A stretch of 63,343 nucleotides of DNA, taken from IMG/VR virus record IMGVR_UViG_3300027749_002909, positions 1 through 63,343 of that record; one strand, written 5' to 3'. Every line of letters begins with the position of its first letter. The stretch's first letter is position 1. The stretch comes from a virus (Duplodnaviria; Caudoviricetes). The position numbers were made by a program, and so were the translations under genes. Shown in pieces: positions 2,403 through 49,300 of this stretch. The notes below the pieces were generated by a model. The model made no database searches and was not told where the DNA came from. It saw only the letters and a list, made by a program, of their open reading frames with translations.

Positions 2403-2471
2403 GCAAAATAGGATTTTGCTATATGAAATGCTTAATTTTTAAGCAGTTTTAGACTGTTGTATTTTTACAAC
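2403..2471. repeat. Three short inverted repeats upstream of the early promoter
   Basis: GCAAAAT-agg-ATTTTGC (2403-2419), TGCTTAA-ttt-TTAAGCA (2429-2445), GTTGTA-tttt-TACAAC (2456-2471). Confidence 0.6.
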
Positions 2472-2935
2472 GGATTTTCAGGGGTTTCTTTAGGAGATTC
2501 TAGTAGATACTCATAGTTGGTAGTATCTATATTTTCTCTAAAAATGATAGCACCATTCTTAAGATGGAATCTTCGGGCCAAGTTAGTCTTAGGGCTTAGT
2601 GTCACAAATCTAGTAACGCTAGGATATTGTGATTGGATTCCCTTTACTGCTTGATACAGTAATTCTTTTCCTTTGCCGCTTTTGTAACTCCAGATAGTGT
2701 AGAATATTGCGGTAGTAGGAACTGTTGATGTTTTCTTTAACCCTTCAACATCTTCGGGAACGAAATCATGAAAGCTAACACAAACCATTGCTTCTGGTTG
2801 TTGTTCTTCGTCAGTTAGTGCTGCTACAACTCTGCCATCACTAACTCTAAAGTCAGTAGATATTTCAGGACGAACCGGATCGTCTTTGATAAAACTCAAT
2901 AGTGTGTGTGATAGGTCTGTGATAAATTGAAACAT
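2465..2935 (-). CDS. GNAT-fold protein with malonyl-CoA decarboxylase-like catalytic motifs
   Basis: AIFYTI...GKELL...RFVTLSP...ARRFHLKNGA parallels the AIFYSI, TLSP and FHLxNGA motifs of the MCD catalytic domain. Confidence 0.55.
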   Translation of the reverse strand: MFQFITDLSHTLLSFIKDDPVRPEISTDFRVSDGRVVAALTDEEQQPEAMVCVSFHDFVPEDVEGLKKTSTVPTTAIFYTIWSYKSGKGKELLYQAVKGIQSQYPSVTRFVTLSPKTNLARRFHLKNGAIIFRENIDTTNYEYLLESPKETPENPL

Positions 2936-2980
2936 GATATTGTTATTTATGCGTATATTATAAAAACAGAATTTATCTAT

Positions 2981-3006
2981 AAAAATAGGGACCGAAGCCC
3001 CTATTT
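2981..3006 (-). terminator. Rho-independent terminator after tmRNA
   Basis: AAATAGGGG-C(TTCG)G-TCCCTATTTTT: stem with C-UUCG-G tetraloop ending in a U run. Confidence 0.85.
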
Positions 3007-3440
3007 GCTATTTTTGGTTACAAGGTATAACTACCTCGGGTATCATGCCGCTAGGGCAAATACCTCGTCATTAGATGCGTTTGCATTTAAAAGGTTTTGT
3101 GTCTACGGCCGAGTCTCCCCAACCCTAACGGCTTCTACATTGCCGGACTGTCCATTTCTGTACTCTTGACCCAATCGATCCTGTGTCAGGCCCATTAATA
3201 ATATATCACTCGTGCAGTCTGTTAAATTTTTTCATTTTATCAGATGCATACGTAGTAAAAAACATTGGAAAGATTCCGTGTATCAATAAAGCGATTCCCA
3301 TTGACCACGTAAAAGCCAAATGCTCAATGTACCCCATTCCAACGTCTTTTAAGTGTTTCATAATAAATTATTGGTGGACCTGGCGGGCACTGCCCCCGCG
3401 TCTTGAATCCTTTTCTATCTACTTCATACAGTCTTAACTC
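3007..3440 (-). ncRNA. ssrA: Circularly permuted (two-piece) tmRNA gene: acceptor piece ~3440-3372, intervening segment 3371-3194, coding piece 3193-~3007
   Basis: 3' tRNA-like half GCGGG-GGCAGTG-CCCGC-CAGGTCC-A-CCA ends at 3372, upstream of the 5' half GGGCCTG-ACACAGGATCGA starting at 3193; 7-bp acceptor stem with G3.U70; tag frame 3084-3043 = ANASNDEVFALAA*; outer ends approximate. Confidence 0.93.
3206..3361 (-). CDS. 51-aa hydrophobic protein inside the tmRNA intervening segment (DUF6356-like; not in ORF track)
   Basis: MKHLKDVGMGYIEHLAFTWSMGIALLIHGIFPMFFTTYASDKMKKFNRLHE*; occupies 156 of 178 nt of the segment; H-xxx-VG-xx-Y-x-EH...IH-xx-FP-xx-F-xxx-AS pattern recalled from DUF6356. Confidence 0.75.
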   Translation of the reverse strand: MKHLKDVGMGYIEHLAFTWSMGIALLIHGIFPMFFTTYASDKMKKFNRLHE

Positions 3441-3572
3441 TTACTTAACTGTTTCTGTATGCTTGCCTTTAAAACTTTTCTTTAGTAGTTTAAGCCAAAG
3501 TACTTTGGCTTTTACTAAATTATGTTTTAACTCAGCACGGTTAAGTTTTAATATTAGTTTTTTAGTTTTCAT
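3441..3572 (-). CDS. 43-aa highly basic protein upstream of tmRNA (not in ORF track)
   Basis: MKTKKLILKLNRAELKHNLVKAKVLWLKLLKKSFKGKHTETVK*; ATG 4 nt after GATAAATA. Confidence 0.6.
   Translation of the reverse strand: MKTKKLILKLNRAELKHNLVKAKVLWLKLLKKSFKGKHTETVK
3492..3511. repeat. Perfect 20-bp palindrome
   Basis: AAGCCAAAGT|ACTTTGGCTT, flanked by TTTAGTA (3481-3487) and TACTAAA (3513-3519). Confidence 0.9.
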
Positions 3573-3576
3573 ACTA

Positions 3577-3584
3577 TATTTATC
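3577..3584 (-). promoter_or_regulatory. T4-late-like promoter (GATAAATA), likely driving the small ORF and tmRNA
   Basis: Same TAAATA core sits in intergenic gaps at 2944, 6790, 15158, 30312, 31314, 33563, 34343, 56519 and 57008. Confidence 0.7.
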
Positions 3585-3595
3585 ATGTATTGATT

Positions 3596-4183
3596 CTACT
3601 TGTTTGCAAGTGGATTGTCAATAGCTTTTTGTATCTTTTGGTCAATTTCTCGTTTCAATTGTTCCACTTCTTTTGAAATTTCTCTACGTGCCGATGCCAT
3701 TTCACTACGAACTGCTGCTGCTTCTGAACGGGCCTTATCTAAATCTTCTCTAACACCCTTACGCATTTCACGCATTTCGCCTTCAGTTTCACGTTGAGCA
3801 GTTTTTACACTGCGTTCAACTTGTTCTGTTACTGACTCATTGCGGCGAATATCACTCTTTAGGTCGTTCTTGATGTCACGAGTGTAGTCGCTGGTTTTGC
3901 CTGATGTTTCTTCAATAACTGCCAGTCGCTTGTCAAAGCCCGATAAGTCTGGTGCTGAGTATTCAGTTATCTTTTTCTTCATGCCCTGGTAGTCCTTGTA
4001 AACTTCAAAGGCACCATACAATCCACCCAGCAATGTACTTGCTAGTGTCGCTGCTACCATAAGTTTGGCAGGGGTAAATTCATATCCACCAATTGAGATA
4101 ACTGTGTCTTTGCTGGCATACTTCTTTACCGCTGCTTCAGCTTGGTCAATCTTTGCGTCAACGCTTTTGATTTCTTCTGTCAT
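3596..4183 (-). CDS. Membrane-anchored coiled-coil protein
   Basis: One hydrophobic helix (LMVAATLASTLLGGLYGAF) then long heptad-rich region ending DNPLANK; start moved to ATG 4183 with AAGGAA upstream. Confidence 0.75.
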   Translation of the reverse strand: MTEEIKSVDAKIDQAEAAVKKYASKDTVISIGGYEFTPAKLMVAATLASTLLGGLYGAFEVYKDYQGMKKKITEYSAPDLSGFDKRLAVIEETSGKTSDYTRDIKNDLKSDIRRNESVTEQVERSVKTAQRETEGEMREMRKGVREDLDKARSEAAAVRSEMASARREISKEVEQLKREIDQKIQKAIDNPLANK

Positions 4184-4187
4184 TTTA

Positions 4188-6203
4188 TTATTCCTTATTG
4201 TATTGACTGTCAACTATTTGCTTCCAACGAGTTTCATTGGCTCCGCTGAGTTGACGTTGTGCGGATCTATTATCTACTGTGGCCTTGTAGTATTGTTTTG
4301 CTACTGTAGCGCCCAGTGCGTCTGGTACCAGACTGTTTTGATATGCGCTAAAGCCCGGCACATATCCTATCAAGCCCACTAGTAGTCCTTGTGTAGCTGT
4401 TTGTGCTTCCATGGTTGCTGCCCGGCTGACATCTTTAGCTAGTTCTTTGGCTTTTTCTGTTGCTGCTGATCTAGCTGCTGCTGCATTACCACCGGCTTTC
4501 TTTTCTACACTGGCCACAGCACTGTCAGTTTTCTTGGCATCAACCTTTTGTTCTGCTGCTGCACCCGGAGGAGGTGGCGGGGGAGGTGCAGATGCTGAGT
4601 TCATTGTGCTGGCACTAGGCGGTGAATTGATTACTGATATAGGGGAAGTAACTGAAGTTGCTGATGTAGCGGATGGTGCTGCCACAACCGAATCCACTGT
4701 AGAGTTTCCCGTTGCAGACACTGCATTAGAAGGATCATTGCGTTGAACTTCCACTGTAGTGGTCAGTGCTGAATTAACAGCAGTGGTCACAGCAGGGTCT
4801 AGATTCACAAGATACTTGATAGCATAGGCTGTTTTGTATCCTGTGCATTTGTTGCTGAACAAGCTGTCCAACAAGCACTGCTGATTTAAATATGCTTCTG
4901 CATAGCCGGGGCAATCAGTTGCATATAACGGACTTGCTGTACATTGTTGATTTTTATAAGCGGCGGCGTACCCAGTGCAATCAGATGCATATAATGGACT
5001 TAATGAACACTGTTGAGTTTTGTAAGCAGCCGCATAGCCGGGGCAGTCAGTTGCATACAATGCGTTTGCTGTACATTGTTGAGTTTTGTAGGCAGCAGCA
5101 TAACCGGGGCAGTCACTTGCATACAGTGCATTTATACTGCATTGTTGAGTTTTGTATGCTGCTGCATATCCTGCACAGTCACTTGCATACAACGGACTTA
5201 ATGAACATTGTTGAATTTTGTAGGCAGACGCATAGCCAGGACAATCAGTTGCATACAATGAACTAGCTGTGCATTGCTGTGTTTTGTAGGCTGCTGCGTA
5301 CCCCGTACAGTCACTTGCATACAATGCATTTATGCTGCACTGTTGATCGTGATAGGCAACAGCGTAGCCAGGACAGTCAGTTGCATATAACGGACTTGCT
5401 GTACATTGTTGAGTTTTGTAAGCTGCCGCATAGCCTGGACAGTCAGTTGCGTAAAATGGATTAGCGTTGCACTGCTGAGTTTTGTAGGCAGTAGCATATC
5501 CAGGACAAGTGGTTGCATACAGGGAGTTTGCTGCACACCGTTGGTCATAGTAAGCCTGCTGATATCCTGGACAAGCCGAATTATACAAAGGATTAGAACT
5601 GCATTGCTGTGAAAAATATGCTTGGGCATAACCTGGGCAAGTACTGTCATACAAGGAATTAGCACTACACCGTTGAGCAAACACCGCAGCGGCATAACCT
5701 GAGCAAGTGGTAGAACTCAATGGATCAGCAGCACACGGATCAGCGGTGTATACTGCTTTGCTATACATGTCATAAATGCTGGCGTTGCCATTTATCCCTG
5801 GCGTCATTTTAAATGTGCCCAGGGTTGTTATATCTCGTGCATTGTTAAATCTATATTGATAATTTTGATTACCAGATTGCCATACACCCTGATGAGACCA
5901 GGTTTGATTATAAATGCTGATATTCCCACTGTCTCTGATGTTTATGTTAACATTAGCATAGTTTGCCATCCACCAGGAGCAACTGCCGTCCTGATTGGTT
6001 GCCGTGCATTGGGTATTGCCAAATGAGTATTTGTATCCGTAATCAAAACCGTGTATTTGTACACCGGCACCTACTGAACTCAGGGCCTGATTGATGGCAT
6101 AGATTTGAGCCCCGGTAGTTCCAGGCAGCAGATTACCACTAATAGTCTGTGCCGTTGTACAGCCAATACACAGCATTAACAATAACGCTGCTAGTTGCTT
6201 CAT
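4188..6203 (-). CDS. Exported Cys-rich tandem-repeat protein
   Basis: Signal-peptide-like N-terminus; 14 repeats of QQC-x9-C-[PTAS]GY-xx-AY; Ser/Thr/Pro linker with poly-Pro; Ala-rich C-terminus. Confidence 0.85.
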   Translation of the reverse strand: MKQLAALLLMLCIGCTTAQTISGNLLPGTTGAQIYAINQALSSVGAGVQIHGFDYGYKYSFGNTQCTATNQDGSCSWWMANYANVNINIRDSGNISIYNQTWSHQGVWQSGNQNYQYRFNNARDITTLGTFKMTPGINGNASIYDMYSKAVYTADPCAADPLSSTTCSGYAAAVFAQRCSANSLYDSTCPGYAQAYFSQQCSSNPLYNSACPGYQQAYYDQRCAANSLYATTCPGYATAYKTQQCNANPFYATDCPGYAAAYKTQQCTASPLYATDCPGYAVAYHDQQCSINALYASDCTGYAAAYKTQQCTASSLYATDCPGYASAYKIQQCSLSPLYASDCAGYAAAYKTQQCSINALYASDCPGYAAAYKTQQCTANALYATDCPGYAAAYKTQQCSLSPLYASDCTGYAAAYKNQQCTASPLYATDCPGYAEAYLNQQCLLDSLFSNKCTGYKTAYAIKYLVNLDPAVTTAVNSALTTTVEVQRNDPSNAVSATGNSTVDSVVAAPSATSATSVTSPISVINSPPSASTMNSASAPPPPPPPGAAAEQKVDAKKTDSAVASVEKKAGGNAAAARSAATEKAKELAKDVSRAATMEAQTATQGLLVGLIGYVPGFSAYQNSLVPDALGATVAKQYYKATVDNRSAQRQLSGANETRWKQIVDSQYNKE
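4823..5741 (-). repeat. Coding tandem repeat, 66-nt period, 14 degenerate units
   Basis: Units such as QQCTASPLYATDCPGYAAAYKT counted from the translation. Confidence 0.9.
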
Positions 6204-34351: not shown

Positions 34352-37300
34352 TTAACTTATATCCGTTCTTAAGAAAATTGCTCCCTGAGTGTACGCAATC
34401 TGTAACGGATCTCCCTCTACTGGGTTATAAATTCCGGGTATTGGATTCCATGTACTTTGATATAAAACGTCTGACATTCTATTATTAGGTATTAATCCAA
34501 ATACTTCTGTATACAATGGAATATAATTTTGTTCCCCTGTACCATTCGTACCCCTGATTAGTTTAGTTACGGTATTAAGTGCTAAATTGCATTCACCAAA
34601 CCCAATTTGCTCTCCGTTAATGTACAATAATCTACCTTCAACTGAAGTGATTGTCAAATCATCCCCGGTAGTAACTTGAGCAGAAATCTGCAATATTGGA
34701 GCAGTATCTACAATAATTATTTTGTAATTATTAGAATTGACTTCGGTAGCTGTAGTGTTGTTATACACAGTCAAATGACATATAACGTTTTTATTAGATG
34801 ATAGTCCAATATTATACTTACCGTCAATTATTGAAGGGGTGATTACATTTTGAACAACAGTATCAGTGATGCGAGATATATCATTTAAGTAAATTGTTTG
34901 ATCAGTATATGACAATGATCTAGTTAACCAAGTTCTAGTTTGAACATTTGCTCGGTAAACTGCGGCACGATTGGTTGTACTGACATTTAATAAATAAACT
35001 TCTTCATTTGGTGTTGCAGTTGGCATCATACTGGTTATTATGATGCTATCACCAGTAACAATAGTTGACAATATACTTAGGTTGTTATTGGCATTTAGTT
35101 TTAGCGATGATGATGGAACACGATAACCATTGATAGTTACCCACAATCTGTCTACATTCACTTGCTCAAAATCACTATCAATTGTAAATATTCCGTCTTT
35201 CCAAACATAACCACCGGATATATAATTAGATGCAAATATTACTGGATAATTAATTGCATTTAATGCAGGATTGTATGGTTCTGAATATAAATCAAATACC
35301 GTGCTGCTTATTATTTTAGCATAATATGTATTGTTGTTTAATTGAATAGACCCCAATGTTCCGTCAATACGTACTAGTGCATTTTCTGTTAAATTATTGT
35401 TTATACCGGTTGTCACACGTATAGCAGGTGACCCGCCCATGTATCCCTGAATATTATCAGATGAATTTGTCAAATTAATCAATGTTCCAAATTCGTCAGC
35501 AATAGTAAAGTCAGTTAAATTAAGTATATCTTTAATAAAATACACTTGACCTGTTGTATCTATTCCACCTACATTAGCTAGTAACGCTTGTCCAGTACCA
35601 CTTCCAGTTGTTGCCGCAGTAAAGATATCTCCTACTGCATAAACTACACCAACTGTACCTGCTGTTGTGTTCCATTGAAGTTGAGTGGTTCCGATTAATG
35701 TAGTAATTTGATATATCTTTCCTACACCAAATGAACCTGCAGCAAATATTGGTGCTTTAAATATTATATTTTGATCTACCACTAATGAAGTAGTGCTATC
35801 GCAACTTATATAATCACTTGCATCAGTACTGTTAACGTTGACTGTTGCAGCTGGAGGAGTAATAGAATTATTAATATACACGATATTAGCAACAGTTACT
35901 CCATTAACAACCCCTGTCATTGTCCCAGTATCAGTAGTTACGACTGTAGGCAAACCACCTAATTGTGTAGATACTGTAAAATCAGTAGAGCTTAAAATTT
36001 CAGTAACATAATAAGTTACACCTGCAATTAATCCACCTAAAGTAGGACTGTTAAATATTATTGGATAATTCAACAATAAGCTAGCAGTTGTGCCTGAACC
36101 CAATGTTAAGTAATTTAATTCTTGGTCAAACAATACTATTTCAGGACTATCTTCGTCAAATGTATACGTGTTGGGCGAATTTTCGTCAAAAGAAGCCACA
36201 CTGTGTACGGTATTACTTACTGTGATTGTTGTTACAGTAGAACCAGTTGAACCAGTAACACCATATTGTGTATTAAAATATTGACGTTCAGTTAAATTAT
36301 ATGATGTAACTGCAATAGAACTATCAAGTGCAGGAGGACTATTAAACAATATTGTATTTGTTACTGCACTAATAGTGTATGCTGATGCAGTCTGACGTAT
36401 GCCATTTATTTCTACAATAGCACTAGTAGTATTAGTATCTCCTACATAATTATCCAAGTAGAATAATGAACTTGACCCGTTTCCTGCAAATATCTGCACT
36501 TGAGGAATAGTATAACCGTACTGTATAGGATATGTTTGTCCAAACAAGCTGTATGATATATAGTGTTCTGTAACGTTAAAGTTATTTGCAAATATTAGCG
36601 CAGCAGTTATTCCGTTATCTGCTATACCAATAGCAAAATCATTAGTTATTAAAGTTGCCCCACCGGTGGCATTAGTCAATACTAGTTCACTTCCACCTAC
36701 TGTTTCAGAAATAGTAAATTCATTATTATCATATATAGTTTTAATATAATAGATTTGATGAGGAACAATAACTCCACCAAAGATTGTATCACTAAACACA
36801 ATAGTAGTGTTAGGGATAAAAGAACCGGTAGAATTAGTTGTTATGGTATTAGTAATAGCTTTTGTTTTGAATACCGATGCAAGTGTTCCCAATACTAATT
36901 GAGTTCCGTTATCATATACTGCAGGGGGTGTCCATACTACACCCGTACCCACTTGAATAATAGCAGTCATTGATCCAACGGCTGTGGTTAATTCAAAGGT
37001 TTCTCCTGCTGTACCAGTGGTTGAATTGTAGTATAGTGATACTGTAATTTTATTAGAAATTCCGCTTATAGATTTAACATAATAAATTTGGTCTTCAACT
37101 ATGTTACCAAATACTGCGCCACTGAATGTGATAGGACTATTTAACACAAAATCAATAACACTAGTGCATGTTATAGCATTGCTTATTCCATCAGTAGCGG
37201 TTGCAAGTATTTCAATTGGCTCAGTAGTTGGTCTTATTAGTCCAGATCCATTATATATATCTGCACTATAATTTGCATTTACATAAATCTCTTGGAAACC

Positions 37301-40300
37301 AGTAATTAAATTTAAACGAACGGGGTCAGTTTCAGTATTTGCTTTTACTAATTGATCACCGTTACCAACTTCATAAACATCAATTCGTAATATATTTGAT
37401 ACCCCCTGCGAAACAAACACTAGCGGGGTGTTTAGTATAACGAGTTTGTTTATCCAATCAATTGCGTAATCAATATTTTCATATATTGTTGTACTTACAC
37501 CAGTTGTGTAATCAATTACAAATACACTTAATTGTGCTGGGGTTGTTACTATATGAGCAAAACTATAATCAGTTTGCGAACCTGATGTTGGTGCGATTTC
37601 TTTAGAAACTACGTTATAACCAACATGTTGGTATATAGTTTCATCCCAATTTGTTCCGGGACGAGTAGCTACTGTCATCATAATGGTGTCTGAGACAACA
37701 CCCGGTACCATTTCTTCAGGACCATAACCTGAAAGAAAAGCATCACCTTGAATATTGTACGCTGATGGAGCAGTTTCAAACACTGCGGACGCTGTCCAAG
37801 TTATCGCATCACTACTTATTAAAATAGTATTATTATAACCAACTGTAACATACTGTGCTAAATCATTATTCCAAACAACACTAGTTAGATCTTGAGTGAC
37901 TCCTGAAGTTTGTGATGTCCATGTTATACCGTTAATGGGTGCTGTTTTTATAGTTCCATTTTTTCCAACTACTACAAACAAACTGTTGTCATTATCCCAT
38001 ATGATATTGTTTAAATCATCTATGCCACCTGAAGATTGTGCAAACCAAGTTACAGCATTTGTACTAGTAAATACGACACCATTGTTACCAACTATAACTA
38101 TATTTTCACTATTTGCAGCGATTGAATTAAATCCATAATTTGTAGCAGTAAATGTCACTTGATTCCAAGTGTATCCATCTGTGCTTGTAAATATTATGCC
38201 AACATCTACTGCAATGCCATTATCTAAATATTGACCGGCACCAACAGCAACAAATCCAGTAAATCCAGTAGTGCTTACATAAGCAACACTGTTTAATTGA
38301 TTAGTTAATGCACTGCTTGTAAATTGATAACGCTCTGTCCAACTGTATAAATCAATTGATGATATGATATTACTACCAACTGCTACATATACACCATTAT
38401 GATATGCTGCACTATTTAAGAACGATGAAGGAACAATCAATGATGATAAATCAAAGTTAGTTATATCATATGGAGTACTATCATACGGAGTGAATGCACC
38501 ATTAGTAATCCAAACAAATCCGTTATCACTAACAAGCAACGGGGTTGCACTGTTAGTAGATGTTAATACATATTGACTTCCTGCAAATAATATATCAGTT
38601 ATACCAATTGATTGATTTGTTAACTTAGTAATAGTCCAATTATTAGTATCAACACTAGCAGAAATTGCTGAGTAGGTAGCTGTATCTGAACCTGCTAGGT
38701 AAGTTATACCATTCCAAACTATAGTTTTTAAATCAACACCCGTAACTGCAAATGGTTGATCAATAAGAATAGTATCTAATATAAATTCGTCTGCCGGGGC
38801 AAATGCATTACCTAAATAATTGCTATTTGGATAAGTTATACCGTCTACTAGTTGAGTTAAATCTACACCGGGCATATTTACTGTAGGTTGATAGTAACCT
38901 ATAATTCTGTCTAGTGCATTTAATCTTCTATTACCTGAATCTAATAATTCCCATTTGCCTAAAATGAATTCGTTATCGTTGTTACTTATGATACACTGAT
39001 ATACTTGTTTGTTATATTTTACAATACTACTACTAAAGAAGAACGGCTCTGGTAACAACGCATAGTCACCTGACTTAGCCATTGTCATTGATCCAGACGC
39101 ATTTGTAGTAATATCAAAAACAGTTCCACCTAAAGTTTCTGAAATTGTGACAGTAGTAGTAGTTGGTTTAGACAATACATAATATGTTTGACCCAACGTG
39201 ACTCCACCAAATACGTTACCAGTAAACACTACCAGGTCATTTAAGTTAAAGCTAGTTGAACTAGTAACAGTAAATCTGTTATTAGCTGCTGTTGCAATTG
39301 TAGCAGTAGTTGAGGTTGTACCCACATACGGGAAGTTTTGACCAGTAACTGGAGCTGTTAAAATAGAATTACTATAAACAGCCATTTGATTTTCTGATAT
39401 TACTTTTAAGTAATAGTTAGTTACTGTTCCTGCAGGAGTACCACTTGCGATAGCAGAAGTTACTCCACCAATAGAATCAATAGTCAACACAGTTAATAGT
39501 AAATCGTTTGATGTGGTAGTTCCTCCAATTGAAGTTCCCAAAATAGTTATAGTATTATCAACTGCGTATCCTTCACCAGCCAATTGAATTATTGTTCTAT
39601 ACCCGCCCAAAATGTAACTTACATCAAATATTGGGGCAGTAACTGTAACTTGGGTGAATACTACTGCACCTGTCGCATTAGTTAATGTATCTGCGACTTC
39701 TATGTATGGTTCACCTGAACCGTACATCGTTCCGCTGTCAGTATTAGTAGTATAATCAGTGCCACCGGGTACTTCTGAAATAGTGAAATCAGTTGCAGAA
39801 ACAAGCTGCTTTACATAGTATATTACATTTAGTGCTACTTGTCCAAGAGAGGTACCACTAAATATGATTGGCATGCCCTCATATAGTACATTAGTATCAG
39901 CACACACAAGATAATTTGTTCCGGTCGTAGAAGTAACTGTTATTGATGTTATGCCAGAATCAGTTATAGTATAGTACGGGGTTGCTGCTAATAACCCACC
40001 AATGTTACTTGCTACCTTAAATCTCATGCCAGTGTATATGTTAGTAATTCCACCGGTATTACTTAATAAACAAACTCTGTTTACTGTAGATAAAGTTGCA
40101 GAAATTTCTCTAGTTGTCAAATTAGAAACTGTTCCAGAAACACCAGTATATTGAGATGATGTTTCATATAATGTAAACTCTTGCCCGGTTACTTGACCAG
40201 GACTTATTGGTACTGCTACATTTAATGTCATACTACCAGTACCAGTTGATAATGGTACTGCATTTATTTGACTAGTTACCGTGAACGACCCGGTATCAGT

Positions 40301-43300
40301 TGTCAATATTACAGCACTTCCGTTAACTGCTGTAGCAACAGAGAATGTTGTGTTACCACTGAATAATTCTCTTATATAATAAGTAGTACCTGCTACTATG
40401 TTTCCAATAGTATTGCCCGTAAATATTATAGGTTCATTTACTGTTAATCCCAGTGTACTACTACAGGTGACTGAATTATTAGAAGATGATGTAGCTGTGC
40501 AAGTTAGTACAGTTGGATCGCTCACTGTAGACATGGTAAATGTCTGTGCGTCAATAACGGTTGTTACATAATATTTTTCATTGGCTACAACATCCCCAAA
40601 TACATTACCGGTAAAATATATAGGAAGACCTACATAAAATCCAGTTGTTCCGGCAAGTCCGGTTGCAGTAAGCAACACAGTTACGTTGTTTGTGGTTGCT
40701 GTGGTTGCAGTTGCATTTCTTATAGCGTCATAGTTGACTGTTAATACTGCTTGGTTAGTCAACTGACCAACAAACATTGTTAATCCTGCTACAGGAACCG
40801 TTGCTGTGCTAAGTGTAAACGTAGCGCCCGGGTTACCATCAACATCTACTGTGCTAGAAATTGTAAATCCAGTATCTTCTAGTACAGATGTAGTTGGGTT
40901 TGGTAACTTTACTAGAGATTTTACATAGTAGGTAGTGTAATTAATTAGATTACCTACTGCTGCTCCCTCAAACTTTACTGGCATACCCACATAGAAACCA
41001 ATAGTAGAACCTATATTGTCATTGACATCGGCTCCGCCTACAGTAGGGTTAATACGTATAGTATTTGGATATAATGACGCTGATCCATAAGTTTGAATAG
41101 TATTTCTAGTTCTTGAAGACCAAGTAAGTGTCTGTTGATTCGCTACATCTAAAATTTCAAATGCTGCGCCGTCAGCACTCGCTAGTATTGAACTAATTGG
41201 TGGTTGAGTGCTTTCTAATGTTATAGCACTAGATGAAACCTTACTACTGTTATTAAATGATCCTGCGTAAAACGCACCATAGAATCCGGCTGCTTCCCAA
41301 GGTATTACTTGAGAAGTATATGATGTTCTGTCAAAGCGTAATGCTATAATATTTTCTCTTGTTGGAACTGAACTAGTGATGCAAGATGCAACTGCCCCGA
41401 TACTAAAGTTTTGGGTTCCGCTTCCTGCATTAACTAAAACAATACGATTTTGATCATTTAACGCATCTAAATAACTGCTATAAAGTGCAATTATTGGATA
41501 TGGTGTTACCTCTAAGAGGTTTACATAATATTTTTGTCCATCAATTAATCCGCTAATTTTAGTTGAATCTGCCGCCGCAGTATAAACAATCAAATCACCG
41601 GTCTGTAACAGTGGTGAAATTAATTGTATAGTATTAGATACTATGCTTACCTGGGTGCTATTTACCGATACAACAAGTGATGGGTCAATTATGATTTGGG
41701 GTAATACAGCATAGCCTTCACCCGGGTCAATAACATTTACACCAATGACTGCACCCAAACTCATTATGGGTTCTAACTGTGCAACAACTCTTGGTATCGG
41801 ATATGTGTTTAAATCAATATATGCTGTTACTCTAGGAGGTTCAGCGTATGCTCTACCGCTATTTAGTACTAACACCGCAGGTAAATCTATGAAAATATAT
41901 TCACCGGGTATATGAACAGATACAGTAGTGCCATTTACTCCGCGTGATAACCCGGTCAATTCATTTGTCGCTAAGTTTCTACTGTTATAACCAATCTCTT
42001 CGGTGCCAATTAATATAGTACCGACTACAGGGAAACCTGATACATTATCTACAAAACATGAACTTGAATTCAATGAAAGATAAGAAGTTAAAACTGAAAT
42101 TTGATATCCATTTTGTCCTATAATACTTAATCCATAGTTATTAAACCACTGACTATAACTAACATCTTGCCATATAGGGTCAGTATACAAATATTGATCA
42201 ACACCGGACGGATTTGCATAAACTAATTGAGGGGACACAAATTGGTCAATTGACGAATTATATTTGGCTGGCAAATCAAAATCAGTAATGTCACCTTCGT
42301 ATACATTAATTCCGGTATACTTAAACAAGAAATCTTTTATTACTACATGATAAGGTTTCACTTCATTTAAATACCCAGATAAAAAGTCTTGATTGTCTGA
42401 CTGGAATACTTCAATTGGACGTAGTTCACGTATAGTATGTGATACATCTAAGAAAGATGTTTTGTTTAACCACGGTAAGTAATTTTGATTTTCTACAGTT
42501 TCACTTTGGATGTAATCAAATAACAATATTAAACTTTTGTTTCTGAATATTAATAATTCACCTGTGTAAATTTCTTCGTTTAATGCACGAACGATATAGC
42601 GTGTTTCAACACTTGGAAATTCATCATATGGGGTAGTGTCAAAGAAGTTGTCACCAAATCCCAATCTAGCACTAGAATAATCCCATAGATAGCTACTGAA
42701 TTCAATAGTTCCATTTTCTAAACCAATACGAGTCCATACACCGGCGCCATCATAACGATATGTTTCTGAATTTCCATTACCATTTGTAGCAACAGTTACA
42801 ATTGTTCCGCTTGCTACATTTAGAGTAGACAAGTCAGCGTATATAGCAACTTGAATTGCAGATTTGGTATTATTACTATAACCGGGTGCCCACCAGTTAA
42901 TTAGACTCCAATAAGCAGCGGTATCATAAAATTCACCTGATGAATACAAAAATTGAGGATTTCTTATTTCAATAATTGGGAACTGTGATAATATTGCGTT
43001 AGCATATTGTAAATAATTCTTCAATGCACCAAATCTATTATAGAAGAAACTTTGTCTTGGCCTAGCAAGTACACCAGACTGAACTAATTTTGGTAAGAAC
43101 GGGTCAGGAACCACTGCGCCTGAATTGTCAACTCCACACATGCTGTCTAGCATTCTATTGTATAATCCAATAGGAGAAGTAATTCCTACCGCGGCATGAT
43201 TTTGATATCCAGCTGCTGAACCAGGTAGTCCATCTAAGAAATCATCTGCATAATTAGCACGAATCAAACTATATTGATTATGCGCCACGTCATCATTTGT

Positions 43301-46300
43301 ACCGGTAGCATATCCAATGTGTAGTACTGTATCAGTGGCATTGATGAAATCAAAGCAATTGTACAAGCCAAAAACACTTGGTAGTAATGGTGTGAAATAA
43401 CTAATACCCGATGCTTGTGGGTTAGCTATATAACCTTCTAACGTTGAGTCTGCTAAAGTTTTTCCCAAACGTTCAAATATTATATTGGTATTTCTAGCCC
43501 AAAAGTAATAAACAGGAGTAAGTGTACCTTCGGCATTTATGATACTCTCTATCACATAGTTATCAATATTATAAGGCGTTCCTGGACCTTGATATTGTGC
43601 AGGAGGAACATTGCTTGCTATCCAAGAATATACTGTTACTGTACTTCCCGGAAACACTCTGCCCCAATACTTGCTATTATATACAATATCATTTTGATGA
43701 TAATTAATAAAGCGAGAGTTAGCTGTGTTGAACCAAAGCTGACCAACTTTATCAGCTACCCACACTAAACCAGATTGAGTGTTACCTGAATTGTTATATC
43801 CTGCAGGATCAACATTTGATACAACATCAATGTTTTCTGCTACTGCACCTAATAATTTTCCCTGAAGTGGATCAATATAATCTAAATTTTCTAATGTGTT
43901 ATTGGTAGTTGCGCTAAACAATTGAATATTTGCAATTCCATTAATATCTACAATAGCAGATGAACTTCTATACACTGTCCAATCAGGATTGTTACTAGCA
44001 CTAATATAAGTTACTACCTGACCATTGGTATCATTCGCATTAGTAGTAGGACTAAAGTTAGTTGCGCCCACTACCACACGATTTTCATTAAAATCCAATG
44101 CTGAACCATAGTAGGGTTGTGAACCGTAGTCTAGATCTTTTGCATTTGTACTTTGTGCATATACAAACTTACCTGGATTATCTAAATTTTCATTATACGC
44201 TGACAAATAATCAAACATATATACTGCACCTGCATTAGTGAACGTATCTGTCCACTGAGTTGCATTATTGTCAAAAACAGTATCGTTATCTATCTCATCA
44301 TCAGTAAAGTCAAATGTAGTTGCTGCATATCTAGTGCCAACTGGTGCACTTACTACGATTGATCCAGAAGTACCAAATTTAACGACAGTACCAAATTGAG
44401 TGCGGCCTTGTAAATGAGGGCTATTAATTTTTTGTGTTTGCTTATATAAAACTACACCCATCTCACCTAAAGTATCGCTATCTAATATAGTTAACGATAG
44501 TTTACTTCCAGCAACTCCAAGAGCAATATCAACCAATGTTATTATTAATTTTCCGTTAGTCGCTGCTGCATATACATTAATAATTGAACTTAAATTGATT
44601 GCGTTTGCTGCGGTAGTAGCATCACCAATTGGTAGTGTAACTTGAAACCCATTCAATAAAATTGTTCTAGGTGTAGTTATGTTACAGTTTGCTGTACCAA
44701 TAATGATACCGTATTTTTCACCACCGTTGGTATATCTATGCACAGCACCTTCGTAGTTTTGTTCAGATAATTCAAACGGTGCTCCAACTAATATTTCATT
44801 TGCAAATGTATTAGTATCAACACTTGTACCAAACTGTACACCAATTCTAGGTGTTTCTTCGTTAGTTAATGTCTGAGCTAATGTAAATTCACTACTACCT
44901 ACATTTATTATATCACCCGCATTTAATGTAGGGGTTAGCCCGCTATAGACATTTAATATTGACCCCACAACTGCATACATATTATCTTCTAATAGAGTTC
45001 CGTTAACTGTTAGATACAACGGGGATATTTGACCGGTTGCGGTCATTGTTCCTGTAGAATTAGTTAATGTTAAAGTATCACCGTCTCTAGTCAATGATAG
45101 TGTAATAGTTGAACCAGAAATAAGTTTTACATAATATACTATATTAGCAGCTACTCCACCGTAAGGTGTGCCTGTAAATACGATTGGTGTTCCAGTAGCA
45201 CCGTCAGTTAACCCTGATACACTTCCCAATGTAATTGCATTACTTGATATAGAATTTGCTGTGGTTGATAATGTTGATGGTGTAAACGCTAATTGGAATG
45301 TTAATGGAGTATATGCTTGGCTGCTAGTCTGTGCTTCAAAGTTTTGAGATGTTCTTGCAAAAATATATGTGTATCCATAATTCTCAATAGTAGTATCGTA
45401 ATTTTGGTCGGGTGCGCCAACTACAACAGTGTCACCGTAGTAGTCAGTGACTAGTGAATATCCAAAATTATCTCCCGATACTAGTCCCGCAACAGTTAAA
45501 ATATTTACGAGTTCATACAATTTGGTTATAGTTGATTGACGATATACATAAACTCTATTACTTTCAATATCAGAAATGTATAGCCATTTCTTATCACCGG
45601 ACATACTTGTTGAACTACCCCAATTTCCGATAGTATTTGGAGCAACAATAGTTTGAAGTAATGAAACAGTGTCAACTAGTGTATTAGTAATTAGTTGATA
45701 GACATAAACATTAGGTGTTATTGTAGGTTCAGATATAACAAACAAATCATCGGCATATGAAATATATGAACCAAATGATACTCCGTGTGCAATAGTTTGT
45801 ACTACACGATAAGAATCTGTAATATTGTCGTAGGTATAGCGATACACTTCACCTGCTGCACTATCACCTATTAGGTAACCCATTTTAGAAGTATATGCTA
45901 CTGCACTACCAAATGTTTGACTGTTATTTCTTAAAATCTCTTTGTCATATTGATAGTTTAAAGTCTTACGATAAACAGCCCAGCTACCATCGTTATTGGT
46001 ATCAACCCATACTTTTAATTTATTAAATTCGTTGTCTAACAAAGGTAAGTTAATTATTTCAGGTGCAGTAGCAACACGCTGACTTTGCATTCTGAAACCA
46101 ATACCTAAACCAGTTATATTAATTGTGTTAGGATCAAGTGATAAGTTAATAATAACTCTAAAAGGATCTACAACACCGGCTACAATATAATAATTATTGA
46201 TACTTGCATTAAAATTGGCAATAGCAAAAATTTGATAAGTTTTTAATGTATGTGCTTGACCAAAAGTAATAGTTACCGTGCCATTTAAATTGTTCTGAGC

Positions 46301-49300
46301 ATTAACTATAGAACCCAAGCTAGCAGGGGTATATACTTGCCAGTCAGCCAAATAATTAGCTAACCAAACGTAATCACGCACATAAAATTGACTTATTGGA
46401 ATTACAGTACCGCTAGAATTTCTAGCAGTTGCCAATCCAGAGTAAAAATAACTAGCCATTTTAACGTCATTGTAATTTACATATCCGGCTGTAGGATACA
46501 ACGATGACAATTGAGTATTAGATATAGTAGGTAGAATATCTACTGTATTGATTGGTCTACCATAGTTGAACACTGAGTACAATGGCACTTCTTGCTGTAC
46601 CCCTTCGTTATATACTCCAGCAGTTAGTCCAACTATTGACGGATTACCAGTCAAGTCTGGTTGACTTAATCTGAACTCTATAAAATTATTGTTTAATACT
46701 CCGCCAAATTCTCCTGACTTAATAGCCCAGTTTTCATATATGTCGTAGTTAATTCCACCCTGTGGTAGATTAGCACCTTTAAACGCACTTGCTGCATTTA
46801 AGGTACCCTTCTCTTTTATCATGTTTTTGTAAACATTGACTTGAGTTATATCTGTTAAATCGGCCAATGCCATGTAGTCTCTTGGACGATATCCAATTAA
46901 ACTGAAACTTAGTAAGTCTGCATCGTTTTCCAAGTTAGCTTTATCAGTATCATAATATAGTGTGCTTTCGTATGAACGAGTACTGCTGTTAGGTAATAAT
47001 CCTTTTTGAATTTCGGCATAAGGAGTTTCTTTCCACTCACGCTCATTGAATACTTCTTGTGCTTGAATGATACTTAATGCTGCCCAATATCTATTTTTAT
47101 ACCGAACAATAGCCCCTTTGGTGTATTTTATTTCCTTGACCCACTCTGTTATATTATCTTGGTTTAAGATAAAGCCGGCAGCATCAACAGTACCGTTCCA
47201 GTCAGCAGATTTTGCGCCACGTAAATAAACTCTATACTGGCGTAAGCCTGTAACTAAGTTATAAATTATATCGTTGAATAAAGTTACGTTGTTAAAAACA
47301 ATACCGTGTTCAATGTTACTGATATTAAATTGTCCATAAGAAATACTATCACCCACATTCAACGGTGTTGCTGCAAACGCAGTATTTTGACGTAAGATTA
47401 ATAAATCCCTAGATTGTATAGGGTATAAATTTTGATTTAGTACAAAATTAGTTTCTCTTAGTGTCAATGGTTGAACAATATGACTATCTTTATCAATACT
47501 TAACGTATTGGCTGCTGGATTAATTGTAGCAATACTTCCAACTTCCCAGCCAATTTGCGCCCAATATAAAAATTCGGCAACCATTTGAGGCCAGTTGATT
47601 GGGATACCGTTTTCAATTTCTTCAAATTTTACCCCTTGACTTTCTAAATATTTTCCATAACTATTCAAAAAGGTTGCAACTTGTTGCACATTATAAAATT
47701 CAGTACCGTAAGGAATCAGTGCAACTTTGTCGTAGAAATCTCTAGCTAATACTGCTGATAAGTTTTCTATTGATACCTTATCAGTATTATTATTAATCTT
47801 GGGAACTAGTGTAGTAAAGTACGCATTGGTCTGCGAATTACCATATACTTTAAAGCCGTTTTCTGTAATTTGAATAGCCACCGAACTATAAACAATTCTA
47901 TCAAACGGTTGATTTTCATATAATAATACCCCGTAACTTTCGTCAGGTATTAATAAAGAACTGTTGTTGCTATTTGCAGAACTCTTTTCAACATAGAATT
48001 TCAATAGATTTTTATCACTAAATCCAGCCAAACGATAGACTAAACGAACATCTAAATTATCTAACAATGTAGTAATGTTTGCAGTTGCATCAATACCAAC
48101 TTGTTTTTCAAAATCAACAATCCAGTTAATGTAACTGGTTGCAGGAGTACCATTTCCGTAAATTGCTACATCAGCGACTACTAAATGACTTCTATCATTT
48201 ACTAAATATTGATTAAATTCTACGTTGTATTTGTAATTGTCAACATCAACGCCTAAGTTAAAAAACTCTGCTGGTTTAGTCAATGCTAATATACGCATCA
48301 AGTCAAATGGCCATGTGCTACTTCTGCGATAGCTGAATTCTGCGGGACCTACATCGCCAACTTTCCAATCACGGTTAAATGTATTTTGATTATAGTTACC
48401 CAATATAGAAACAAAAGGTGATACTAAATTACCGGCTGAATCAACTGGTAGTACTTTTAATAATTGAGGGCGAACAAATCTAGGCAATACTATAGGATTA
48501 CCATTGTTCCAATCTATACCCGCTGCTAAATCTCCCCATAGCACTAAGTTTTCACTAGTGTAGGGTGCTGCACCATATCTAGCAGTCCACCAACTTGGTT
48601 GCTTAGTAAATCCTAACATTTCCCAGGGAGTTACATTTGGGGTAGATGTATCATAATAGTATAGATATAATCCTCTAAAATAACCTTGTTCAATTGGTTG
48701 TTGATTTATCTTGTTACCACTGTCTCTGTAATTGAAAGTATATTGATTATTTCTATTATATACTTGTCTCTTGTAATCAATGCGGTTTTCACCAACCCAA
48801 TTTAAAAATGATTCAGAATATATTTGTAAAAATTCATCGTATGAATAACCAGTGTCTCTGAAAAATCCCGGTAACACTTCATATAGTTGTACCGGAATAA
48901 CGTTACTTAATTTTAAATTATTGTAAACACGAGTCTCGTATTCTAATAAAACTTGATCTCTATAATCATTTAACTGACCGGTTGTTGTGTTATAAGTACC
49001 GTATAATTTATTGTATGAGCCATCATGACCTACAATAAAGTATGTTTCTGGAGTATATGCAGTATCAAGTGTAATGCTTGGTATAGTAGCAGGGAACAAA
49101 CCCAATTTAGTGGGAGTATTTGGTACATAACTACCGTATGTTTGATTATACTCGTTGATTGTAATAATGTCATTGGCTAATAAATCTAAAGTAACAGTCA
49201 ATGATGGACTGTTAGTACTTACTGTATAATCAATCCCAGTAGTCAATTGTGTTACTGAAGTAACACCGTCGGTTGTTCTTGTTAAGTATACTAATACACC

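What the first reader, a model, noticed from the sequence alone, without database searches (positions are those of the whole stretch)
3194..3371. A protein gene nested in the excised intervening segment of the tmRNA
Seen: the 178-nt spacer between CCA (3372) and the 5' G (3193) is almost filled by a 51-codon ORF (3361-3206), starting 10 nt after CCA and ending 12 nt before G1, with three spaced His and a hydrophobic core. Established: the intervening segment is removed by RNase P and 3' trimming and is usually short. Inference: tmRNA maturation would release or destroy a mini-mRNA, coupling this DUF6356-like protein to tmRNA processing. ORF-containing spacers may have bacterial precedent, so novelty needs checking.
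Basis: partly seen in the sequence, partly recalled or inferred. Interest (0 to 1): 0.85.

Follow-up and report, generated by a model that had tools for sequence, protein, structure and literature searches.

The report
Protein gene inside phage tmRNA spacer
A jumbo phage carries a two-piece tmRNA gene whose discarded spacer holds a real small protein gene, and related phages use the same spacer as a swap-in slot for many different small genes.

Summary
A permuted tmRNA gene lies on the minus strand at 3433-3043 (Rfam RF04321, 93 bits). Its 178-nt intervening segment (3371-3194) holds a 51-codon ORF (3361-3206). The ORF passes Pfam's threshold for DUF6356 (E 7e-10).

The case is not isolated. 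In 165 unique spacers from related IMG/VR phages, 31 of 38 spacers of 120 nt or more carry a sense ORF filling at least 80% of the spacer. The 44 ORF-bearing spacers give 30 protein clusters, four with family matches elsewhere (DUF6356, DUF2061, CxxCxxCC, HNH). Start and stop positions are stereotyped, and each spacer has its own matching closing helix. Spacer-borne pairs show dN/dS of 0.06-0.38 in 10 of 11 informative pairs. A contig with a 98% identical coding piece carries a different cargo. All 47 bacterial beta-type permuted tmRNAs examined have spacers of 3-42 nt and no ORF.

My best reading is an accessory gene cassette in the loop of the tmRNA precursor hairpin, transcribed with the tmRNA. 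Translation and processing were not tested. I found no report of this arrangement in the library searched.

The parts
3593..3621 (-). sigma-70-like promoter candidate (TTGACA-17-TAGAAT, 11 of 12) upstream of the 43-aa ORF and the tmRNA gene
   Evidence: This is a consensus match only: 4 promoter-like sites were found in the region against 2.9 expected from shuffles.
3441..3572 (-). 43-aa basic ORF in the slot directly upstream of the acceptor piece
   Evidence: A 70% identical copy sits in the same place in L044. No Pfam family.
3372..3433 (-). tmRNA acceptor piece: 5' pairing region, T-arm, 3' strand of the acceptor stem, encoded CCA ending at 3372
   Evidence: Rfam RF04321 alignment, model positions 1-62. 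The sequence is 98% identical to many relatives.
3194..3371 (-). intervening segment (IVS), 178 nt, 31% G+C, absent from mature tmRNA
   Evidence: It is the insert between model positions 86 and 87 in the alignment.
3206..3361 (-). 51-aa DUF6356-family gene (the cargo), stop codon included
3359..3371 (-). 5' strand of the IVS closing helix; it includes A and U of the start codon
   Evidence: The duplex is -4.7 kcal/mol, and 0 of 153 foreign 3' ends pair as well with it.
3194..3209 (-). 3' strand of the IVS closing helix plus the leader up to U(-1) before the RNase P site
3043..3193 (-). tmRNA coding piece from G1 (3193) to the tag stop codon. The tag frame is 3084-3043 and reads ANASNDEVFALAA*.
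   Evidence: It is 98% identical to L096.
2983..3006 (-). G+C hairpin followed by a T run: the likely 3' end and terminator of the coding piece
   Evidence: One search lists the hairpin on the + strand; on the - strand it is also followed by TTTTTAT. The same terminal hairpin aligns to the 3' end of RF01850 in relatives.

Best explanation
The 51-codon ORF is a functional accessory gene for a small, His-rich, partly hydrophobic protein of the DUF6356 family. It sits as a cassette in the loop of the hairpin that forms the intervening segment of a phage-encoded, betaproteobacterial-type two-piece tmRNA gene. Shown: the tmRNA parts are intact. The ORF belongs to a real protein family. In this clade of roughly 350-kb freshwater phages the spacer is a hypervariable slot, holding at least 30 unrelated small ORF families in a stereotyped layout, each with its own matching closing helix. 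These spacers are exchanged between otherwise near-identical tmRNA genes. Inferred: promoter, acceptor piece, cassette and coding piece are one transcript. The cargo is translated mainly on the nascent or unprocessed precursor, before the 3' strand of the closing helix has been made. That helix hides the start codon here, and the AAGGA Shine-Dalgarno-like motif in most relatives. Once the helix closes, the tRNA-like domain folds. RNase P then cuts at G1 (3193) and 3' trimming back to CCA (3372) removes the cassette. One transcription event would therefore yield both a tmRNA and a short burst of cargo protein. What the DUF6356 protein does is unknown. Three invariant His residues in a two-helix model make a metal- or cofactor-binding small membrane-associated protein my best guess.
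For: tmRNA integrity: RF04321 at 93.3 bits, all 213 model positions aligned, a G3.U acceptor stem and an ALAA-ended tag.

Gene reality:
- Pfam DUF6356 at E 7.3e-10, above the cut-off.
- Database homologs at 78% and 76% identity.
- H3, H14, H28, G29 and P32 are invariant in 21 aligned members.
- All 30 ESM-Atlas feature hits fall in the DUF6356 set.
- The AlphaFold model has mean pLDDT 89.4 with two helices.
- Against free-standing homologs, pN is 0.19-0.31 and pS is 0.72-1.0.

The slot is general:
- 237 phage tmRNA genes gave 165 unique spacers of 20-489 nt.
- 31 of 38 unique spacers of 120 nt or more have a sense ORF covering at least 80% of the spacer. The antisense strand gives 1 of 38, and shuffles give mean cover of 0.32-0.37.
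- 44 ORF-bearing spacers fall into 30 protein clusters.
- The start codon lies 8-12 nt after CCA in 37 of 44. The stop ends 1 nt before G1 in 30 of 44 and 12-15 nt before G1 in 14 of 44; the window belongs to the second class. An SD-like motif precedes the start in 34 of 44.
- Other cargoes match DUF2061 (3.5e-20), CxxCxxCC (1.3e-6), a homing endonuclease family (phrog_655, 5.7e-14) and Oxidored-like (1e-11).
- dN/dS between spacer-borne copies is 0.06-0.38 in 10 of 11 informative pairs.

Exchange:
- L096 has a coding piece 98% identical to the window's and a 100% identical downstream protein. Its spacer ends with the 123-aa cargo family instead of DUF6356, and identity with the window resumes exactly at G1.
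- Of 39 pairs with near-identical mature parts, 31 have spacers under 60% identical.

One RNA:
- The two spacer ends pair with each other at a mean of -9.5 kcal/mol, against -3.6 for mismatched partners.
- In 107 of 154 spacers fewer than 5% of foreign 3' ends pair as well; for the window the figure is 0 of 153.
- The folded precursor shows acceptor stem plus closing helix, z = -3.5.
- The only terminator-like site in 2800-3800 lies after the coding piece.

Ancestry: 47 bacterial beta-type permuted tmRNAs have spacers of 3-42 nt. Most of those of 23 nt or more begin AAGGG/AAGCG-like, the likely source of the phage SD-like AAGGA.
Against: - No direct evidence of transcription, translation or processing. 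The four RNA-labelled runs I laid covered only the conserved mature parts, from relatives with other spacers, and none covered the window's spacer.
- The window's ORF has no SD-like motif. However, only 15 of 40 window genes have one.
- No second copy of DUF6356 inside a tmRNA was found. All other family members examined are free-standing: 0 of 14 loci and 0 of 20 loci lie inside a tmRNA, although one lies 19 nt upstream of one. Selection on the window's copy since it entered the spacer therefore cannot be measured.
- A promoter-like site (TTAACA-16-TATTAT, 10 of 12) ends 5 nt before G1. It could allow separate transcription of the coding piece.
- One spacer-borne pair has dN/dS of 1.40, from 1 synonymous and 6 non-synonymous changes.
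- Sense orientation is weak evidence, because nearly all genes in this window lie on the same strand.
- Hydropathy peaks at 1.57, which is borderline for a membrane helix.
Confidence: 0.72

Rival explanations
1. The cassette is an ordinary gene between two separately transcribed half-genes. The acceptor piece and the coding piece would each have their own promoter, the ORF would be a normal small phage gene lying between them, and nothing would link its expression to tmRNA maturation.
For: A promoter-like site ends 5 nt upstream of G1. Spacers reach 489 nt. Genes of the same families also occur free-standing, often directly upstream of the acceptor piece.
Against: Promoter-like matches are no more frequent than in shuffles: 4 found against 2.9 expected. 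Each spacer's ends are specifically complementary and extend the acceptor stem, which has no purpose for separate transcripts. In most cases there are only 8-12 nt before the start and 1 or 12-15 nt after the stop, leaving no room for a terminator or promoter. No terminator-like site lies between the halves. The bacterial relatives have 3-42 nt hairpin spacers that can only be co-transcribed.
Confidence: 0.12
2. The ORF is a silent passenger or decaying relic. A DUF6356 gene recombined into a tolerant loop and is no longer expressed. This resembles the S23p ORF of the Coxiella 23S rRNA intervening sequence, which appears not to be made in vivo.
For: No SD-like motif is present, and the start codon lies within the closing helix. 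This arrangement was found only once. The Coxiella precedent is from the abstract read.
Against: The frame is intact and all five family-invariant residues are kept. pN is far below pS against homologs. Most window genes also lack an SD-like motif. Other cargoes measured while inside spacers are under purifying selection. The closing helix here is weak, AU-only, at -4.7 kcal/mol.
Confidence: 0.1
3. The cassettes are selfish mobile elements that home into the tmRNA spacer. They would spread by recombination or nuclease-driven homing between co-infecting phages, using the conserved tmRNA halves as homology arms, without benefit to the phage.
For: One spacer (L441) encodes an HNH or homing-endonuclease-like protein. 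Whole spacers are swapped between near-identical tmRNAs. L210 carries a fossil cassette flanked by degenerate tmRNA fragments.
Against: Only 1 of 30 cargo clusters looks like a nuclease. The window's cargo has no nuclease or recombinase signature: DUF6356 was the only family listed up to E 10. Purifying selection on diverse non-nuclease cargoes suggests they are kept for their own function. This rival explains how cargoes move, not what they do, so it is compatible with the best explanation.
Confidence: 0.06

Closest known systems
Two-piece (circularly permuted) tmRNA genes of Betaproteobacteria such as Rhodocyclaceae (Rfam RF01850, RF04321)
   Same: Gene order of acceptor piece, spacer, coding piece; T-arm; G3.U acceptor stem; ANDxxFALAA-type tags; a terminal hairpin; and a spacer whose two ends pair.
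   Different: The 47 bacterial spacers examined are 3-42 nt and hold no ORF. The window's spacer is 178 nt and encodes a protein, and related phage spacers reach 489 nt. RF01850 itself did not reach its gathering score in the window, although it did in 10 of 14 relatives' loci.
Intervening sequences of 23S rRNA that carry the S23p ORF (Coxiella, Leptospira)
   Same: A protein ORF lies inside a hairpin-closed segment that is cut out of a stable-RNA precursor and then degraded (abstract of PMC4990558).
   Different: That element is excised by RNase III from rRNA, carries one conserved ORF family, and according to that abstract is apparently not translated and is decaying. Here the host RNA is tmRNA, excision would be by RNase P plus 3' trimming, and cargoes are many, unrelated and under purifying selection. 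The Leptospira case is recalled, not read.
Group I introns in the tmRNA T-loop that carry LAGLIDADG homing endonuclease genes
   Same: A protein gene is nested in a removed part of a tmRNA gene (passages of PMC11915505: 36 of 883 intron-form genes carry such genes).
   Different: Those are self-splicing introns in standard-order genes, and the cargo is the intron's own mobility enzyme. Here there is no intron: Rfam finds only tmRNA_permuted. The removed part is the permutation spacer, and the cargo is not a nuclease.
PeSL promoter-stem-loop cassettes that shuffle small genes in T4-type phages
   Same: Small accessory ORFs bounded by conserved short regulatory or structural motifs are swapped between close relatives (titles and abstract starts of PMC2839356 and PMC4122927).
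   Different: In PeSLs the conserved flanks are promoter and terminator motifs between genes. Here the flanks are the two halves of a functional RNA gene, and each cassette brings its own complementary helix strands.
Other known contents of permuted-tmRNA spacers
   Same: The 2025 tmRNA database paper notes one spacer with an intact tRNA-Ala gene and one with a repetitive element.
   Different: The passages I read mention no protein-coding cargo. That database held only 79 phage tmRNA sequences.

Membership tests
Permuted (two-piece) tmRNA, Rfam RF04321 | Score at or above the family's gathering score over the whole model | tested here: met
   93.3 bits against 47, E 9.5e-17, model positions 1-213 of 213
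Permuted (two-piece) tmRNA, Rfam RF04321 | Circularly permuted order: T-arm and 3' acceptor strand with CCA come first, and the 5' acceptor strand and tag frame come after a spacer | tested here: met
   Alignment: CCA ends at 3372 and G1 is at 3193
Permuted (two-piece) tmRNA, Rfam RF04321 | Seven-pair acceptor stem with G3.U70 (alanine identity) and a tag frame resuming at GCA and ending ALAA | tested here: met
   GGGCCUG pairs with CAGGUCC, read. The tag is ANASNDEVFALAA*. That G3.U is the alanine identity element is recalled knowledge.
Permuted (two-piece) tmRNA, Rfam RF04321 | Precursor is cleaved into two base-paired RNAs, and the spacer is removed | not testable with these tools
   The RNA contigs laid cannot show ends and did not cover the spacer
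Betaproteobacterial subtype, Rfam RF01850 | Score at or above the gathering score (84 bits) | tested here: inconclusive
   Not listed for the window at gathering, but listed for 10 of 14 relatives' loci and for L467. The 178-nt insert probably costs score.
DUF6356 (Pfam PF19883) | Score at or above Pfam's gathering score | tested here: met
   39.3 bits against 24.4, E 7.3e-10, residues 2-47 on profile positions 6-58 of 64. A six-frame search of the record gave 37.5 bits.
DUF6356 (Pfam PF19883) | Family-invariant residues present | tested here: met
   H3, H14, H28, G29 and P32 are invariant in 21 aligned members
DUF6356 (Pfam PF19883) | Full-length architecture of the cellular form (about 62 profile positions, scores near 100 bits) | tested here: not met
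   The window protein and other short phage forms lack about 7 residues of the hydrophobic stretch and the C-terminal part. Cellular matches cover profile positions 2-63. The window protein is therefore a shortened phage variant of the family.
Intron-encoded or free-standing homing endonuclease | Nuclease domain (HNH, LAGLIDADG, GIY-YIG) in the ORF, or a group I or II intron around it | tested here: not met
   Pfam up to E 10 lists only DUF6356. No PHROG family matched. Rfam finds no intron.
23S rRNA intervening-sequence protein (S23p) | Sequence membership in that protein family | tested here: not met
   No such family appears among Pfam matches up to E 10. The resemblance is in arrangement only.

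The most novel reading that the evidence does not exclude
The tmRNA spacer in these phages is a purpose-built expression cassette site, not merely a tolerant loop. The ancestral spacer stem (AAGGR...) has been co-opted as the ribosome-binding site. Cargo is translated only in the time window before the closing helix forms, so translation gates folding and RNase P cleavage of the tmRNA. After cleavage, the leftover message has its stop codon 1 nt from the new 3' end in 30 of 44 cassettes and 12 nt from it in the window. It would then be a near-non-stop mRNA whose product is tagged for degradation by the very tmRNA it was cut from. That would be a self-limiting, dual-output gene.
Probability: 0.2. 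Interest if true: 0.9.

Novelty: new variant of a known kind. Interest (0 to 1): 0.74.

Why it matters
tmRNA spacers have been treated as short throw-away linkers. These data suggest that a widespread clade of freshwater jumbo phages uses the spacer of a stable-RNA gene to carry and exchange small accessory genes. If so, one promoter yields both a ribosome-rescue RNA and a protein, and RNA processing necessarily ends the life of the message.

This has three practical consequences:
- It provides a natural system for studying competition between translation and RNA folding or RNase P cleavage.
- It provides a defined recombination hotspot bounded by an RNA gene.
- It points to small phage proteins that gene callers and RNA annotators may each mask or skip.

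It also shows that ARAGORN-based surveys can miss such genes. ARAGORN found none in this window and 87 of 150 relatives when given trimmed flanks.

Tried and rejected
- ARAGORN on the window found nothing.
- blastn of 2900-3700 against cultured-phage records found no match, so no isolate is at hand.
- Expression: the look-up of sequencing runs listed 20 runs, all kept as contigs. I laid three RNA runs and one run labelled RNA but probably DNA. They covered only about 3094-3195 and 3372-3440, with other spacers joined in between (for example 56 letters in place of 176), and did not cover the window's spacer. This says nothing either way about expression of the ORF.
- A closer copy of the same arrangement was not found. 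The peptide and a 3-sequence alignment were scanned against IMG/VR and JGI metagenome contigs, and the protein database was searched. All relatives whose DNA I could see are free-standing.
- Link between DUF6356 and tmRNA in cells: 0 of 20 alphaproteobacterial DUF6356 loci have a tmRNA within 1.5 kb.
- PDB sequence search with the family profile gave 0 hits at E up to 1. I did not run a fold search on the 51-residue two-helix model, because I judged matches to such a small fold uninformative.
- SmpB was found in 0 of 5 near-complete relatives, so the phage tmRNA would have to use the host's SmpB.
- Literature: searches found no report of protein genes in permuted-tmRNA spacers. Sharkady & Williams 2004 was not held and Mao et al. 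2009 was not searched successfully, so older subscription papers remain unchecked. Supplements of PMC11915505 were not seen and may list spacer contents.

Full report
**1. What is in the window**

The minus strand of 3433-3043 matches Rfam tmRNA_permuted (RF04321) at 93.3 bits against a gathering score of 47, E 9.5e-17, over all 213 model positions. It is the only Rfam family found in the 63-kb window. ARAGORN finds nothing.

Reading the alignment against the sequence gives these parts:
- The acceptor piece runs 3433-3372 and ends GGUCCACCA.
- An unaligned insert of 178 nt follows (3371-3194).
- The coding piece starts GGGCCUGA at 3193.

The acceptor stem GGGCCUG/CAGGUCC has G.U at the third pair. 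The tag frame starts at GCA (3084), reads ANASNDEVFALAA and stops at 3043. A G+C hairpin with a T run follows at 3006-2983.

The ORF 3361-3206 (51 aa, ATG) starts 10 nt after CCA and ends 12 nt before G1.

**2. Is the ORF a gene?**

ORF length alone is weak evidence. 49 of 2000 dinucleotide-preserving shuffles reach 51 codons.

The protein evidence is stronger:
- It passes Pfam's threshold for DUF6356 (PF19883): 39.3 bits against 24.4, E 7.3e-10. It is found again in a six-frame search of the record.
- The protein database holds relatives at 78% and 76% identity.
- IMG/VR and metagenome contigs hold about 40 more at 35-71% identity.
- In an alignment of 21 members, H3, H14, H28, G29 and P32 are invariant.
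- All 30 ESM-Atlas feature hits fall in the DUF6356 set.
- AlphaFold with that alignment gives a confident model (mean pLDDT 89.4) with helices at 11-30 and 38-50.
- Hydropathy peaks at 1.57 over residues 15-35, which is borderline for a membrane helix.
- Against free-standing homologs, non-synonymous differences (pN 0.19-0.31) are far below synonymous ones (pS 0.72-1.0, saturated).

The ORF has no Shine-Dalgarno-like motif, but only 15 of 40 genes in the window have one.

**3. The organism and its relatives**

The window is an IMG/VR virus record estimated at 18% complete. Neighbouring proteins have hundreds of relatives in IMG/VR, on contigs up to 352 kb, some with terminal repeats.

RF04321 hits in relatives:
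- Over threshold in 13 of 25 relatives' records.
- In 7 of the 8 records that are at least 90% complete; the eighth has a 38-bit match.
- In 5 of 50 further, mostly short, contigs.
- Ten of 14 of these loci also pass the betaproteobacterial model RF01850.

Tags are of the ANDSQFALAA or ANDEQFALAA type. SmpB was not found in 5 near-complete relatives.

**4. The spacer is a cargo slot**

Parsing all loci held gave 253 loci with an acceptor motif and 238 spacers; 15 mostly ran off contig ends. That is 237 instances without the window's duplicate, and 165 unique spacers of 20-489 nt, median 87.

ORF content:
- Among unique spacers of 120 nt or more, 31 of 38 hold a sense ORF filling at least 80% of the spacer. 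The antisense strand gives 1 of 38, and shuffles cover 0.32-0.37 on average.
- 35 of 165 unique spacers hold an ORF of at least 30 aa covering at least 70% of the spacer.
- Two more examples, L185 (83 aa) and L188 (49 aa), come and were missed by my motif.
- The 44 ORFs of at least 20 aa fall into 30 clusters.

The layout is stereotyped:
- The start is 8-12 nt after CCA in 37 of 44.
- The stop ends 1 nt before G1 (UGA-U|GGG) in 30 of 44, or 12-15 nt before G1 in 14 of 44. The window is in the second class.
- An SD-like motif, typically UAAGGAAGU, lies between CCA and the start in 34 of 44.

Cargoes match real families:
- DUF2061 at 3.5e-20, CxxCxxCC at 1.3e-6 and a weak HNH match.
- Homing endonuclease phrog_655 at 5.7e-14.
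- Oxidored-like at 1e-11.

Copies of the same cargo in different spacers differ mostly at synonymous sites. dN/dS is 0.06-0.38 in 10 of 11 informative pairs. One pair gives 1.40 from 7 changes, and one pair has no synonymous change.

**5. Exchange of cassettes**

L096 shares a 98% identical coding piece and a 100% identical downstream protein with the window. Its spacer ends with the C-terminus of the 123-aa cargo family, and identity to the window begins exactly at G1.

I compared unique-spacer genes whose acceptor pieces differ by at most 3 nt and whose coding pieces are at least 95% identical. Of 39 such pairs, 31 have spacers under 60% identical, 7 are at least 80% identical and 1 lies between. 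Because identical spacers were collapsed first, this overstates the rate of difference but still shows that replacement is frequent.

Cargo families also occur outside spacers, often directly upstream of the acceptor piece:
- DUF6356 in L467 ends 19 nt before a tmRNA that passes both Rfam models.
- Other families show the same placement.
- In L210 the upstream copy is flanked by degenerate acceptor-end and coding-start sequences, which looks like a fossil of an older tmRNA copy.

**6. A closing helix travels with each cassette**

The first 14 nt and last 16 nt of a spacer pair with each other at a mean of -9.5 kcal/mol, against -3.6 for mismatched partners. In 107 of 154 spacers fewer than 5% of foreign 3' ends pair as well.

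The window's helix is AU-only (-4.7 kcal/mol) and unique: 0 of 153 foreign ends match it. It includes A and U of the start codon. Folding 3400-3170 gives the T-arm, the acceptor stem and this extension (z = -3.5). No terminator-like site lies between the halves.

**7. Bacterial comparison**

A pattern scan of GTDB genomes returned 120 loci. Of these, 47 have the coding piece downstream; by record title they are Rhodocyclaceae, Accumulibacter, Dechloromonas, Azonexus, Thauera and similar. Their spacers are 3-42 nt and hold no ORF. The eight spacers of 3-4 nt were confirmed as true permuted tmRNAs by Rfam.

Most of the longer bacterial spacers (23 nt or more) begin AAGGG or AAGCG and end in a complementary strand. 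This is a plausible ancestor of the phage AAGGA motif, which would then serve both as a stem strand and as a ribosome-binding site (inference).

**8. DUF6356 elsewhere**

The family was found in 37 of 201 sampled genomes of the class of G076, an alphaproteobacterium by the record title of L548. None of 20 such loci has a tmRNA within 1.5 kb. An Lrp/AsnC regulator lies beside the gene in both loci I examined. The only paper in the library that holds the name mentions it once.

**9. How it most likely works**

Shown: an intact tmRNA gene; a real protein gene inside its spacer; a clade-wide, structured, exchangeable cassette site.

Inferred:
- There is one transcript, running from the promoter-like site at 3621-3593 to the hairpin at 3006-2983.
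- Translation of the cargo occurs on the nascent precursor, before the 3' helix strand exists.
- The helix then closes, RNase P cuts at G1, and the 3' end is trimmed to CCA.
- This severs the cargo message and probably destroys it.

Rivals are separate transcription of the halves, a silent relic, and selfish homing. Each is weighed in its own section.

**10. Literature**

- The 2025 tmRNA database paper (passages read) lists a tRNA-Ala and a repeat element as unusual spacer contents, homing endonuclease genes only in group I introns, and 79 phage tmRNAs.
- The Melnitz phage paper (passages) reports two-piece tmRNAs in aquatic phages but no spacer genes.
- The huge-phage and phage G papers (passages) used ARAGORN only.
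- Searches found no report of protein genes in permuted-tmRNA spacers. Older subscription papers and supplements were not seen.

**11. Verdict**

The arrangement is a new variant of the two-piece tmRNA gene and is general across a phage clade. The coupling mechanism is reasonable but untested.

Noticed in passing
L177:1631-1810 (-); also L186, L337, L419, L429: A 115-nt spacer encodes an Oxidored-like domain (PF09791, E 1e-11) in a frame with no start codon inside the spacer. The only in-frame ATG lies at nt 7 of the acceptor piece, 4 nt after the stop of the upstream gene. The stop lies inside the coding piece. If this ORF is real, it overlaps mature tmRNA sequence on both sides. All three unique variants keep the frame open.
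   Followed up: partly
L210:4650-4930 (-): A 52-aa gene that is spacer cargo in 7 other loci sits upstream of the live tmRNA here. It is flanked by degenerate copies of the acceptor 3' end and the coding-piece 5' start. This looks like a fossil of an earlier tmRNA copy or a tandem duplication.
   Followed up: partly
L309, L313, L342, L374, L330, L349 (spacers of about 100 nt): A recurrent hydrophobic micro-ORF family of 32-41 aa starts 10-11 nt after CCA and runs past G1 into the coding piece.
   Followed up: no
L183:1563-1638 (+): This 76-nt spacer contains a T-arm-like stretch (AAGGTTCGAATCCTT) and may be a tRNA-like fragment inside a tmRNA spacer.
   Followed up: no
L466:1501-1800 (+): A free-standing DUF6356 gene (71% identical to the window's) is followed directly by a homolog of the L238 spacer cargo. 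Genes from the cargo pool therefore cluster outside tmRNA too.
   Followed up: no
window 34352-53080 (-): A single ORF of 6242 aa.
   Followed up: no
window 4188-6203 (-): A 671-aa ORF with a signal-peptide-like start and many tandem repeats of a CPGYAxAYKTQQC-type unit. It has only a weak sub-threshold Pfam match.
   Followed up: no
window 2465-2935 (-): The 156-aa protein just downstream of the tmRNA matches the malonyl-CoA decarboxylase C-terminal domain (E 2.1e-7). It is 79-100% identical in 80 IMG/VR loci.
   Followed up: no
L591, L608 (bacterial genomes G255, G093): Cellular DUF6356 genes lie next to an Lrp/AsnC-family regulator in both loci examined. A conserved neighbouring stretch is shared by 15 of 20 loci.
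   Followed up: partly
L186 (G006) and L185 (G012): Some relatives have unusual tags. L186 reads ANVNKTVTVSGKNIKFSARSAKEALAV*, far longer than the 10-13 residues of the others.
   Followed up: no
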